Positions 57,001-60,000 of a stretch of 61,742 nucleotides of DNA are shown here, in pieces (positions within the stretch are counted from its first letter, which is position 1; each line of letters starts with the position of its first letter). The position numbers are program-made. This DNA comes from a virus. Its lineage: Duplodnaviria > Heunggongvirae > Uroviricota > Caudoviricetes. Location: the IMG/VR virus record IMGVR_UViG_646311924_000011; one strand, written 5' to 3'.

Positions 57001-60000
57001 CAATACCGGCAATCAGAATTGCGGATGGAACTATTCAGGCCCACGATGATATCGATGAGGAGTTTTTTCAGCCAGTATTGGATGGCTTTCTTATATCCAA
57101 ATATACGCCATTTGACATCCTCCACGCCCTGAAGGACGGGGTTTTACAGCGCACCGGATAAGATTCGGTGTTTTGTTGAAAAATACTGTGATAACAAACA
57201 GAAAACCCGTCAGTAAGACGGGCTTAGCAAGCTGGGACGGTTACTTTAATAATTTCAGTGCCTTTACATCCACTTCAACACTGCTCAGGTCTTTATCAAT
57301 TTCACCCTCAATTCTTACTTTGTCTTTCGGAGAAACATTCTGACCGGCCCATATGCTGTCATCGATATCCGTGACAATTGTCCCGCTATTGTCACGAAAC
57401 TCATAACGTTCATCACCCACTTTTTTAACGATGCTCCCTTCAAGGATAACCCATGCATCATCCTTCAGTTCTTTTGCCTGCGCTACTGTTGAACGCTCTG
57501 CTTCAGGCCCTTGGAAACCGCCCTGCTGTGCAAAAGCGCCAAAAGACACACCAGAAATAAGTGCTGCAATCAATACCTTTTTCATTCATAGTCCTCTTTC
57601 AGAGATGAACATTCAAACAGCATTTTCAGTATGGTAAAGCGCGGGTGCGTTGAGGATGCCTGACACATCAGAGGTGGCGGGAGATTACTCCCCCGCTTGG
57701 TCTCTTACTTCTCAGATTCGTAGTCTACGAAGACAGCGACCTCCGTCTGACCGGTTCGGATTCGCACCTCGCAGAGGTCTTTCCTCGTTACCAGTGCCGT
57801 CACTATGACGGTTAAACAGATGACGATCAGGGCGATTAACATCGCCTTTTGCTGCTTCATAGCCTGCTTCTCCTTGCCTTTCGGCACGTAAGAGGCTAAC
57901 CTACATGTGTTCAGCATGGATTGAGCCTCAGATTAATGTTAAGCGTCTTGCCGGACGCGTAATGTTAACTGGGGCTTTTCTCTATCTGCCGTTGGTGTTC
58001 ATGCCCGAGGCAGATAGCCTCAAGCACCCGCAGCAATTCTACTTAACTCTCCTTTTCCCGCAAACCGTTTTTATCTCCAGCGACAAATCGAATACACAAC
58101 CAGCACCACCGCCATTACTGTTCCTACATTTGCGAATGCTTCAGGCCAGGTCATTGATTCACCTTCTGCTCAATATTTTTAAGGTCATTTTCCGCATACA
58201 GTATTGCAGTTCTTGCTGCCCGCAACCGTGCTTTGGTGTTCTTTTCTTCACGCTCGAGGCTGGCAACAGATTCTCGGAGCTGATCGTGTCTGTTATGAAG
58301 CTGTCTAATCTCTCTCACCACAGCCTCACCATCGTTCGCACACCGCAGAACATACTGAAAAGGGTCCACAACACATCCGCACTGCAAGCACAGGATAACG
58401 TGATCCTGTTCATGAACCTCAATGGCCCGATGCTTACAGCTCTGTTGTGTGTAGTTTTTTCTGCCAGTTACTGTAATGTTCAGCAGCTTCTCTTCATCGC
58501 GCTTTGGCTGCACCAGTGTGATGATATTATCGCCTTCATTTTCCATCAGTTCACCTCCTGCGGCGGTTCTGGTAGCGGCATCCAGTGTGACGGTTTCCAC
58601 GACGCACCAGGAATTATCCACCCATCATTAGCGTCAGGATGCCCCGGGATGTAAGTCGCCCACTTCATTCGCCAGTCACCTTTCCTGTCAAACTCCACGG
58701 CAACAAGAACGGCTGTTTTGGTATCCGGCATTCGCTCACTACAACTTATCCAACCATCCGGAGTTACCGGAGAGTTGCCAGACAGCGCATTCTGCAACCG
58801 TTCCAGCTTAACGTATTCCTGAACCCTGTTTCCGTCGCACGCCTGAAGCCATTGCTCAGCCTTTTGCGCATCAGTGTGAAAGGCACAAGTGCGACCGTCA
58901 TCAAATTGCATTTCGTAGAGGTTAGCAATCTGTTCAAACTGCGTGTGTGGCAACTTGTAAGTTTGGCTTACGAGTTCGGCTTCCAGTTCTGCTATGCGCT
59001 TCTCTGATGCTTCAAGTAACGCCTGCTTATCGCGTAGCGCTTCTTCCAGTTCAGCAACATGGCATTCACTATCAATAAGGTTGTTCTCTGCTGCTCCCAG
59101 CTCAACTCTCAGCTTCCCAACCGTAAGCGCAATCTCCTCGTTCTCCTGGTCGCGGCGTTTGATGTATTGCTGGTTTCTTTCCCGTTCATCCAGCAGTTCC
59201 AGCACGGTAGCCGGGTTAGCCTCTGCTATGAATTCAGCGTTGCATAAGCCTGAGCATCTGTTTCAACCAGGCAGTTAACATGACATTCTGCAATCACGCC
59301 ACCGGGTTCTCCTTTCCATTTTTGGCAAACAAAAACTCCTGTTAAATTGCCGTGCTGGTTAACAGATGTATGCCCTACGATGTAGCTTCCTTTAGTTGCT
59401 TTCTCTGCCTTTTCACGCAGTGCCTGATAGTCAATCTTGCTCATTTTTCTCTTCACTCCGGTATACAAGGATTACTACGCCCCCTCTGCTAATTGCGCGA
59501 GCTGGATCCCCTGGTTCCATGCCGTCAATACCGAAGGCTTCGAAAAATGCATCTATTGCCTTTTGGCGTTGCTCCTGCTTACGGCGTTTATTCCATTTTT
59601 TCATGAACAACAGTGACAGCCATCGTCCGCTGCAGAACATGATGTAGAAATAACCAAGGAGCGCTAGGCCGGTGTTCAGGGCTGTATCGATCGTTATCGT
59701 GGTGTTGATGTTCACTTCACACCTCTCTGTTTGTTGATAAGTTCAATATCCTGCTGGCAACTGGCGCAAGCTCTGCATCCACGAACAGCCAGGCGTCGCC
59801 GCTCATCTATCGGATCGCCACACTCGCAACAATGAGTAGCAGATGGGGCATTACTATCGGATTTGTATTTTTGCAGGGAGAGATTGCGCTGCAATTCTTC
59901 GATTTCAGCGGCGTTGTCGATGATATCTGCCATTTTCCTTTCCTTCAGGCATGAAAAAAGGAGCCGAAGCTCCTTTGGTTTTAGAATTCGAATTGCCTTG

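What the first reader, a model, noticed from the sequence alone, without database searches (positions are those of the whole stretch)
57705..58000. hokD/relF-like type I toxin in the b region
The 51-aa product is nearly identical to chromosomal HokD/Gef-type toxins as recalled, with an in-frame upstream ATG (57917) that may represent the mok-like coupling frame. Its antisense regulator should be encoded on the plus strand around 57860-58000. Together with the hokA-like locus this gives the prophage two independent type I toxin loci.
Basis: partly seen in the sequence, partly recalled or inferred. Interest (0 to 1): 0.45.

Follow-up and report, generated by a model that had tools for sequence, protein, structure and literature searches.

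The report
Known hokW-sokW toxin-antitoxin locus

Summary
Window 57643-58064 (minus strand) holds a complete hok/mok/sok module:
- a 51-aa Hok/Gef peptide (57860..57705; Pfam E=1e-22);
- an in-frame 70-codon mok frame starting at 57917;
- a leader that matches Rfam 'sok' at 113.5 bits;
- a 5'/3' (tac/fbi) closure of a ~387-nt mRNA;
- a 71-nt antisense RNA on the plus strand (57909..57979) with its own promoter.

The 431 nt around it are 100% identical to phage 933W, whose GenBank record annotates mokW, hokW and sokW, and to VT2-Sakai/Sp5. Takada et al. 2021 (PMC8621323) showed the following for this exact sequence. HokW is toxic. sokW RNA neutralises it, partly dependent on RNase III and Hfq. 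sokW disappears on prophage induction, HokW then reaches the inner membrane, and deleting the locus halves phage release. All their locus-specific primer sequences checked map exactly onto the window.

HokW is 47/51 identical to K-12 HokD, but K-12 hokD has lost the whole leader and sok. The prophage does carry a second hok-type locus (44756..45110, plus strand).

Two untested leads remain. The Tyr46 codon lies in seven bases identical to the tRNA-Arg(ACG) anticodon loop, a possible TadA editing site. The locus is also co-oriented with pL read-through across attP.

The parts
58036..58064 (-). Putative hokW mRNA promoter: -35 TTTGCG (58064..58059), 17-nt spacer, -10 TAGAAT (58041..58036)
   Evidence: Read directly from the sequence. 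The -10 is conserved as TAGAAT, TAGGAT or TACAAT in six relatives. It falls below the threshold of the simple promoter scan. The 5' end has not been mapped, so this part is inferred.
57643..58029 (-). Full-length hokW mRNA (about 387 nt), from the tac element at the 5' end to the fbi element at the 3' end
   Evidence: The Rfam sok model starts at 58029. The MFE fold closes the 5' end on the 3' end; the 400-nt stretch 58029..57630 gives z=-7.4 against shuffles. The fold of the 387-nt mRNA itself shows the same closure. Six relatives share the consensus fold, with 10 compensatory pairs.
58018..58029 (-). tac element, GGGUGCUUGAGG
   Evidence: Pairs with fbi in the MFE and consensus folds. It is invariant in the six loci compared.
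57643..57655 (-). fbi element, CCUCAACGCACCC (fold-back inhibition; complement of tac with one bulged C)
   Evidence: It is retained in K-12 hokD and mutated in the decayed remnant of phage P13374.
57909..57979 (+). sokW antisense RNA (71 nt): 14-nt single-stranded 5' tail, long hairpin, UUUU tail. It is complementary to mRNA nt 51-121, including the mok Shine-Dalgarno sequence and AUG
   Evidence: Mapped from the misc_RNA sokW annotation of AF125520.1. Fold gives -29.9 kcal/mol, z=-4.95. The published probe YO-592 maps to 57938..57909, and the RNA was detected by northern blot.
57874..57902 (+). sokW promoter: -35 TTGCCT (57874..57879), 17-nt spacer, -10 TAACCT (57897..57902)
   Evidence: Sequence. 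Primer YO-421 of Takada et al. changes TAACCT to GAGCCG, and that 'pro-less' construct releases HokW toxicity.
57705..57917 (-). mokW reading frame (70 codons), in frame with hokW and sharing its stop codon. Its AUG is paired with a 3' dcb-like segment in the full-length fold
   Evidence: annotated mokW. One search shows nt 113-115 paired with nt 372-374. Translational coupling itself has not been tested for hokW.
57705..57860 (-). hokW toxin ORF (51 aa)
   Evidence: Pfam HOK_GEF E=1.1e-22 and phrog_251 E=9.8e-33. Annotated hokW in 933W. Toxicity and inner-membrane localisation are published for the identical sequence.
57656..57671 (-). dcb-like segment that pairs with the mok start region (ucb-like, 57917..57899) in the full-length mRNA
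   Evidence: MFE fold and partial covariation. Naming it by analogy with R1 is an inference.
57677..57696 (-). GC-rich hairpin just after the hokW stop codon
   Evidence: Both-sided (compensatory) changes are seen at two of its pairs (columns 339/352 and 342/349); other pairs vary on one side only.
57717..57723 (-). CUACGAA heptamer containing the Tyr46 codon (UAC, 57722..57720). It is identical to the tRNA-Arg(ACG) anticodon loop. It is a candidate TadA A-to-I site at 57721, which would recode Tyr46 to Cys
   Evidence: Predicted 7-nt loop on a 4-bp stem; the probability that the A is unpaired is 0.99. The tRNA-Arg(ACG) loop sequence was verified. K-12 hokD has UUACGAA instead. Editing of hokD, hokC and hokE at codon 46 is published. 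Editing of hokW itself is untested.

Best explanation
The locus is hokW-mokW-sokW, a complete hok/sok-family type I toxin-antitoxin module carried in the b region of an Stx2 prophage of the 933W/Sp5 type integrated in wrbA.

Shown in the literature for the identical sequence:
- HokW arrests growth when expressed.
- sokW RNA made from its own promoter prevents this, partly dependent on RNase III and Hfq.
- hokW mRNA and sokW RNA coexist in the lysogen.
- After mitomycin C treatment sokW RNA vanishes, and HokW then accumulates in the inner membrane. HokW production needs RecA and is also seen after a 44 C shift; it appears about 1 h before endolysin.
- Deleting the locus delays growth arrest and halves released phage.

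Inferred from the sequence and from the plasmid R1 paradigm:
- A stable ~387-nt mRNA is made from a weak promoter. It is kept translationally inert by pairing of its 5' end (tac) with its 3' end (fbi), and by pairing of the mok start region with a downstream box.
- 3' trimming opens this structure.
- SokW then binds through its 14-nt single-stranded tail to the mok Shine-Dalgarno/AUG region and blocks mok translation. This also blocks the coupled hok translation and marks the duplex for RNase III.
- When SokW is no longer replenished, HokW is made and depolarises the membrane.
For: - Protein and RNA family matches: Pfam HOK_GEF E=1e-22; Rfam sok 113.5 bits.
- 100% identity over 431 nt to AF125520.1 (933W) and AP000363.1 (VT2-Sakai). 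933W annotates mokW, hokW and sokW at the corresponding positions.
- All sixteen locus-specific primer or probe sequences checked from Takada et al. map exactly to the window.
- Experimental results are in PMC8621323.
- SokW shows the expected architecture of tail, hairpin and U-run, z=-4.95.
- The tac/fbi closure is predicted with z=-7.4.
- The mRNA fold is conserved in six loci with 10 compensatory pairs.
- Prophage context: wrbA fragments, int, xis and N.
Against: - The biological effect reported is modest (about 2-fold in phage release, about 40 min in timing) and comes from one laboratory.
- The hokW mRNA ends, mok-hok coupling and 3' processing have not been mapped for this locus.
- The tac/fbi pairs are invariant among the relatives compared, so covariation says nothing for or against them.
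- The simple promoter scan does not reach its threshold for either promoter.
- Related Stx2a phages of the O104:H4 type carry only a decayed remnant, so the locus is dispensable.
Confidence: 0.93

Rival explanations
1. Prophage-maintenance (addiction) module. Cells that lose the prophage lose short-lived SokW and are killed by HokW translated from the stable mRNA, as in post-segregational killing by plasmid R1 hok/sok.
For: The 1999 annotation of 933W says 'prophage maintenance'. [quoted passage not shown]
Against: Deleting the locus had no growth phenotype, and the measured effect was on induction and lysis. Chromosomal hok loci that were tested did not mediate post-segregational killing (Pedersen and Gerdes 1999, as summarised). 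Curing rates of prophages with and without hokW have not been measured. This role is not mutually exclusive with the best explanation.
Confidence: 0.2
2. Abortive-infection or superinfection defence. Transcription shut-off by an incoming lytic phage depletes SokW, and HokW then kills the cell before the invader matures.
For: R1 hok/sok on a high-copy plasmid reduces T4 plating (cited). The mechanism would follow from the short SokW half-life.
Against: This has not been tested for hokW. hok genes are not enriched near defence systems (section heading seen). The demonstrated trigger is induction of the resident prophage.
Confidence: 0.12
3. An inactive relic like K-12 hokD (relF): a toxin ORF left without its regulatory leader.
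For: Many phage records label the gene 'RelF inactive antibacterial toxin protein'. HokW is 92% identical to K-12 HokD.
Against: K-12 hokD matches the window only from 57874 downstream. It lacks tac, the Sok target, the mok start and the sok gene, with relBE lying upstream instead. The window has all of these and is experimentally active.
Confidence: 0.02

Closest known systems
hokW-mokW-sokW of phage 933W (AF125520.1) and Sakai prophage 5 / VT2-Sakai
   Same: 100% nucleotide identity over the 431 nt compared. Same position between the giant LPD5-type ORF (L0134) with L0135/L0136 and attR, and the same neighbouring genes.
   Different: Nothing detectable. It is the same locus.
hokD (relF) of the E. 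coli K-12 Qin prophage
   Same: 47/51 aa identity. 93% nucleotide identity from the hok Shine-Dalgarno sequence to beyond fbi. Both have the TACG motif at the Tyr46 codon.
   Different: K-12 hokD has no leader, no mok start, no Sok target and no sok gene, because relBE abuts it. The C-terminus differs (VDYESEK versus TAYEPEE). These nucleotide changes turn UUACGAA into CUACGAA. Many other E. coli strains carry full-length hokD-type loci at 91-94% identity.
hok/mok/sok (parB) of plasmid R1 and related plasmid loci
   Same: The overall design is shared: Hok/Gef peptide, leader matching Rfam RF01794, tac/fbi closure, cis-antisense Sok with a 5' tail plus hairpin, and involvement of RNase III.
   Different: Only 44% aa identity to R1 Hok. 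In the one plasmid-borne locus examined, mok is a separate out-of-frame protein (DUF5431, starts 97 nt apart). mokW is in frame with hokW (57 nt apart) and gives no DUF5431 match. The demonstrated role here is help with lysis at prophage induction, not plasmid stabilisation.
hokB of E. coli K-12 (TadA-edited Hok)
   Same: A Tyr codon within a CUACGAA heptamer identical to the tRNA-Arg(ACG) anticodon loop.
   Different: In hokB the editable codon is Tyr29. In hokW it is Tyr46, as in hokC, hokD and hokE. Editing of hokW has not been examined.

Membership tests
[quoted passage not shown] | Hok/Gef peptide of about 50 aa | tested here: met
   Pfam PF01848 E=1.1e-22, covering profile positions 1-42 of 42. 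phrog_251 E=9.8e-33. The translation shows a hydrophobic N-terminal stretch (LIALIVICLTVIVTALV) and cysteines at positions 15 and 30.
[quoted passage not shown] | Structured 5' leader of the toxin mRNA containing the Sok target (Rfam RF01794) | tested here: met
   113.5 bits against a gathering score of 59, matching the full model 1-157, at 58029..57855.
[quoted passage not shown] | cis-encoded antisense Sok RNA with its own promoter, a single-stranded 5' tail and a terminal hairpin | tested here: met
   Sequence and fold support it, and it is annotated as sokW. Expression and function are shown by the published northern blot and -10 mutant on the identical sequence.
[quoted passage not shown] | Overlapping mok reading frame whose start lies in the Sok target | tested here: met
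   The ATG at 57917 opens a 70-codon frame. The AUG is covered by the SokW 5' tail (57909..57922).
[quoted passage not shown] | Translational coupling of hok to mok | not testable with these tools
   This needs mok start or stop mutants. It is not addressed in PMC8621323, where 'mokW' occurs 0 times.
[quoted passage not shown] | Long-range 5'-3' pairing (tac/fbi) that locks the full-length mRNA | tested here: met
   12 pairs are predicted in the single-sequence and consensus folds. They are invariant in six loci, so they show conservation but no covariation.
[quoted passage not shown] | Activation by slow 3' processing and refolding | tested here: inconclusive
   Folds of mRNAs shortened by 40-50 nt free the mok AUG from the 3' box, but the predicted refolds differ with the cut point. 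The published northern blot shows shorter RNA species of unknown identity.
[quoted passage not shown] | Toxin kills or arrests cells, and the antisense RNA neutralises it | not testable with these tools
   Shown experimentally for the identical sequence by Takada et al. 2021.
K-12-type hokD relic (relBE-hokD) | hok ORF without leader, mok start or sok gene, with relBE immediately upstream | tested here: not met
   The window has the full leader. Homology with the K-12-type locus starts only at 57874.
Plasmid-type Mok (Pfam DUF5431) | Mok is a distinct out-of-frame protein overlapping hok | tested here: not met
   MokW gives only a HOK_GEF hit at E<=0.01. mokW and hokW starts are 57 nt apart, so they are in frame. 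The plasmid locus L011 has starts 97 nt apart.

The most novel reading that the evidence does not exclude
HokW release at induction may be wired to prophage excision, and its potency may be gated by RNA editing.

(a) In the prophage, every gene from attR down to L0136 lies on the minus strand: ant, a dksA-like gene, L0140, L0139, hokW and L0136. This is the same direction as N, xis and int. After excision and circularisation, N-antiterminated pL transcription crossing attP would run sense through hokW and head-on into the sokW promoter. The promoter-like site at 60858..60829 could contribute to the same transcription. This could silence or titrate SokW. It would explain the RecA- and induction-dependent loss of sokW RNA that Takada et al. 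left open.

(b) The Tyr46 codon sits in a heptamer identical to the tRNA-Arg(ACG) anticodon loop. TadA may therefore recode a large fraction of HokW to Cys46, the form expected to make the disulfide needed for full toxicity.
Probability: 0.2. Interest if true: 0.4.

Novelty: already known. Interest (0 to 1): 0.1.

Why it matters
As a finding it adds nothing new. The locus has carried the name hokW/mokW/sokW since the 933W genome paper, and its function was tested in 2021.

Its value is as a check that the scan recognises a type I toxin-antitoxin module, including its antisense gene, from raw sequence.

Two small leads could matter to specialists in Stx-phage biology. They are a possible excision-coupled trigger for SokW loss and a probable strong TadA editing site in hokW. 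The presence of a second, unstudied hok-type locus in the same prophage could also explain why deleting hokW-sokW gives only a partial phenotype.

Tried and rejected
- The simple sigma-70 and terminator scan over 57500-58250 found no site. Both promoters fall below its threshold (8 of 12 matches for sokW against 9 required, and only 3 of 6 in one hexamer). They rest instead on homology, conservation and the published -10 mutant.
- Covariation for tac/fbi is uninformative, because the 12 pairs never vary in the six loci.
- Folding 3'-shortened mRNAs to reproduce the R1 tac/ucb refolding gave predictions that depended on the cut point. I do not claim that refold.
- I looked for transcriptome evidence of b-region read-through after induction in a ciprofloxacin/EDL933 study. 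hokW is not mentioned in the main text, and the supplements held as text had no matching terms.
- My first scan for the editing motif picked an upstream GUACGAA (a Val codon) in the relatives. I corrected this to the Tyr46 site.
- The 'inactive RelF' label found in many phage records was considered and rejected.
- Large protein-homology, structure-prediction and metagenome searches were not run, because the exact match to a characterised locus made them unnecessary.
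Full report
**Observation**

On the minus strand, an ORF at 57860..57705 encodes a 51-residue peptide, MKQQKAMLIALIVICLTVIVTALVTRKDLCEVRIRTGQTEVAVFVDYESEK. An in-frame ATG at 57917 extends it to 70 codons. The 70-aa product matches Pfam HOK_GEF over the whole profile: E=1.1e-22, 79.8 bits against a cutoff of 22. The 51-aa product matches PHROG 251, 'MokW-like host killing', at E=9.8e-33. A gathering-threshold Rfam scan of the whole window places family RF01794 (sok) at 58029..57855 on the minus strand, with 113.5 bits against a gathering score of 59, E=4.6e-25, full model length. That model describes the sense-strand leader of hok mRNAs and ends at the hok AUG.

**Identity**

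The 431 nt at 57640-58070 are 100% identical to phage 933W (AF125520.1), VT2-Sakai (AP000363.1), Stx2 converting phage I and dozens of other Stx phages. They are at least 99% identical in 518 E. coli records.

The 933W record annotates mokW, hokW and a misc_RNA 'SokW antisense RNA' here. Converted to window coordinates these are mokW 57917..57705 (-), hokW 57860..57705 (-) and sokW 57909..57979 (+).

The window as a whole is this prophage inserted in wrbA:
- The 3' part of wrbA lies at 1..579 (-).
- It is followed by integrase (576..1910), an excisionase-like gene and N (8142..8525), all on the minus strand.
- The 5' part of wrbA starts at 61197 (-) and breaks off near 61148-61158.

The last 21.7 kb are 99.8-99.9% identical to VT2-Sakai and related Stx phages. 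The locus lies about 3.3 kb inside attR, between the 2806-aa L0134-type ORF and the att site.

**Published experiments on the same sequence**

Takada et al. 2021 (PMC8621323) studied hokW-sokW of Sakai prophage 5. All sixteen locus-specific primer or probe sequences I checked map exactly onto the window. These include the sokW probe (57938..57909) and the hokW probe (57872..57901). The mutagenic primer changes the plus-strand hexamer TAACCT at 57897..57902 to GAGCCG. They report the following:
- Arabinose-induced HokW arrests growth.
- A clone with sokW under its own promoter is not toxic, whereas the -10 mutant is. sokW supplied in trans partly rescues it.
- The antitoxic effect is weakened in rnc and hfq mutants.
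- In an MG1655 Sp5 lysogen both RNAs are present. After mitomycin C, sokW RNA disappears while hokW mRNA persists.
- HokW-3FLAG appears about 2 h after mitomycin C in a RecA-dependent way, also after a 44 C shift but not with ampicillin. It fractionates with the inner membrane and precedes endolysin R by about 1 h.
- Deleting the locus delays growth arrest by about 40 min and halves the released phage.

They state that the step of induction that removes sokW RNA is unknown.

**Anatomy checked here**

*SokW.* The 71-nt SokW folds into a 14-nt single-stranded 5' tail, a long interrupted hairpin and a UUUU end (-29.9 kcal/mol, z=-4.95). It is complementary to mRNA nt 51-121. Its tail covers the mok AUG (nt 113-115), and the 5' arm of its hairpin covers the mok GAGG (nt 101-104).

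*SokW promoter.* Its promoter is TTGCCT (57874..57879), 17 nt, TAACCT (57897..57902), with the annotated start 7 nt downstream.

*hokW mRNA promoter.* A likely mRNA promoter is TTTGCG-17-TAGAAT at 58064..58036, placing the 5' end at 58029. The -10 is conserved in relatives. This 5' end is inferred, not mapped.

*Fold of the full-length mRNA.* The 387-nt RNA 58029..57643 folds so that the 5' GGGUGCUUGAGG (tac) pairs with the 3' CCUCAACGCACCC (fbi). The mok AUG region (nt 113-131) pairs with nt 359-374. Much of the hok ribosome-binding region and the hok AUG are also sequestered. The 400-nt stretch 58029..57630 gives z=-7.4 against shuffles.

*Conservation.* A consensus fold of the window with five full-length relatives at 86-94% identity keeps this architecture. 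The relatives are mEp460, phiSTEC1589-Stx1c, PPompW, a P1-like phage-plasmid and a chromosomal hokD-type locus. Ten pairs show changes on both sides. The 12 tac/fbi pairs are invariant, which shows conservation but gives no covariation evidence.

*3' processing.* Folds of 3'-shortened RNAs free the mok AUG from the 3' box, but they vary with the cut point. The processing and refolding step therefore remains an inference from plasmid R1.

**Relation to hokD and to plasmid hok**

HokW differs from K-12-type HokD at 4 of 51 residues, all near the C-terminus. In a K-12-like chromosome the similarity to the window begins only at 57874, 14 nt before the hok AUG. relB-relE lie immediately upstream. 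K-12 hokD therefore lacks tac, the Sok target, the mok start and sok, while the window locus is complete. The label 'RelF inactive antibacterial toxin protein' found in many phage records is thus misleading for this locus.

Most E. coli genomes hold full-length hokD-type loci at 91-94% identity, and plasmids and P1-like elements hold loci at about 87%.

One difference from plasmid R1-type loci was tested. In a plasmid locus, mok (PGAP 'DUF5431 family protein') starts 97 nt before hok and so is out of frame. mokW starts 57 nt before hokW, is in frame, and gives no DUF5431 match.

**Mechanism and its status**

*Shown (literature, identical sequence):*
- toxicity of HokW;
- neutralisation by SokW expressed from its own promoter;
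- partial dependence on RNase III and Hfq;
- loss of SokW after mitomycin C and RecA-dependent HokW synthesis;
- inner-membrane location;
- contribution to the timing of growth arrest and to phage yield.

*Inferred (sequence plus the R1 paradigm):*
- the mRNA ends;
- the tac/fbi lock;
- mok-hok coupling;
- activation by 3' trimming;
- SokW tail-first binding at the mok start.

*Rival roles.* Prophage addiction and abortive infection are not excluded and are not mutually exclusive with the best explanation, but no direct evidence supports them here. The 'dead relic' reading is rejected.

**Leads beyond the published work**

(a) *Orientation.* Every gene from attR down to the terminator-like hairpin at 57225..57203 is on the minus strand: ant 59981..60610, a dksA-like gene 59712..59933, L0140/L0139, hokW and L0136. 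This is the same direction as N, xis and int. From established lambda biology, pL transcripts modified by N cross attP into the b region once the genome is circular; this underlies sib retroregulation and expression of the ea genes. If the same happens here, induction plus excision would send strong sense transcription through hokW and head-on into the sokW promoter. That would fit the RecA- and induction-dependent loss of SokW. A promoter-like site (TTGACA-18-CATACT, 60858..60829, minus strand) could also feed this transcription unit. This is an inference only.

(b) *Possible RNA editing.* The Tyr46 codon UAC (57722..57720) lies in CUACGAA (57723..57717). These seven bases are identical to the anticodon loop of E. 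coli tRNA-Arg(ACG), whose sequence I verified in 5425 of 5426 genomes and with ARAGORN. They are predicted to form a 7-nt loop on a 4-bp stem, with a probability of 0.99 that the A is unpaired. K-12 hokD has UUACGAA in a larger loop. Bar-Yaacov et al. 2017 found TadA editing of hokC, hokD and hokE at codon 46 and of hokB at codon 29. They noted that hokB, the only target with the full tRNA heptaloop, is edited most. hokD is edited at about 6%. hokW may therefore be a much better TadA substrate than hokD, recoding Tyr46 to Cys. This is untested. The hairpin prediction is also not robust: phiSTEC1589-Stx1c has the same local sequence but a different MFE fold.

**Second locus**

Downstream of lom, at 44756..45110 (+), several features point to a hok-type locus:
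- There is a 46-aa ORF (44905..45045) that matches HOK_GEF (E=4e-8) and PHROG 251 (E=2.8e-24).
- The leader gives a sub-threshold Rfam sok match (35.6 bits).
- The RNA closes 5' GGGUGCC on 3' GGCACCC (z=-6.9).
- The minus strand has TTGACT-18-TAACCT followed by a perfect 16-bp hairpin and UUU.

The locus is not annotated in the 933W record, but PGAP calls it a Hok/Gef family protein. I found no obvious mok frame.

**Verdict**

The finding is correct and well read, but it describes an already named, annotated and experimentally characterised locus. Novelty: already known. Interest: low.

Noticed in passing
window 44756..45110 (+): A second, complete-looking hok-type locus lies just downstream of lom. 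It has a 46-aa Hok/Gef ORF (44905..45045) and a leader with a sub-threshold Rfam sok match (35.6 bits). The RNA shows a 5'/3' closure. On the minus strand there is an antisense promoter-like TTGACT-18-TAACCT followed by a hairpin and UUU. No obvious mok frame was found. It is unannotated in the 933W GenBank record, called Hok/Gef by PGAP, and not mentioned in the hokW-sokW paper. It could mask part of the phenotype of the hokW-sokW deletion.
   Followed up: partly
window 57717..57723 (-): The HokW Tyr46 codon sits in CUACGAA, which is identical to the tRNA-Arg(ACG) anticodon heptaloop and is predicted to lie in a loop. K-12 hokD (about 6% edited) has UUACGAA. This makes it a likely strong TadA A-to-I site (Tyr46 to Cys), not reported for hokW in the papers read here.
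   Followed up: partly
window 58071..58154 (-): A 27-aa hydrophobic small ORF (MTWPEAFANVGTVMAVVLVVYSICRWR) has a start that overlaps the stop of the L0139-type gene (ATGA). It lies immediately upstream of the hokW promoter and may encode a small membrane peptide.
   Followed up: no
window 60651..60739 (-), with promoter-like site 60858..60829 (-): There is an Rfam sRNA-Xcc1 match (69 bits against a gathering score of 53). It sits between a strong promoter-like site (TTGACA-18-CATACT) and the start of the Ant-type antirepressor gene (60610). It may be a structured leader or sRNA at the head of the leftward b-region gene cluster that includes hokW.
   Followed up: no
window 20197..20755 (+): Three tRNA genes (Met-CAT type, Arg-TCG, Arg-TCT) are followed by a full-length STnc100 sRNA match (158 bits) at 20550..20755.
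   Followed up: no
L009 (phage P13374, O104:H4 Stx2a phage) 330..474; corresponds to window 57873..57651: This related Stx2a phage keeps only a decayed hok remnant. It has a frameshifted 38-codon ORF, an internal deletion, no leader or sok, and a mutated fbi. The ant-to-L0139 block and L0136 are absent. The locus is therefore dispensable in that lineage.
   Followed up: partly
window 1..579 (-) and 61148..61197 (-): The host gene wrbA is split by the prophage. Its promoter and first ~16 codons point into the right end of the prophage on the same strand as ant...hokW. Host transcription could therefore enter this gene cluster in the lysogen.
   Followed up: no
window 57763..57765 (-) versus relatives L002-L008: All hokD-type relatives examined have GUACGAA at the Val32-Arg33 codons, a second TACG motif where editing would be synonymous (GUA to GUG). 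The window has GUG hard-coded at this position.
   Followed up: no
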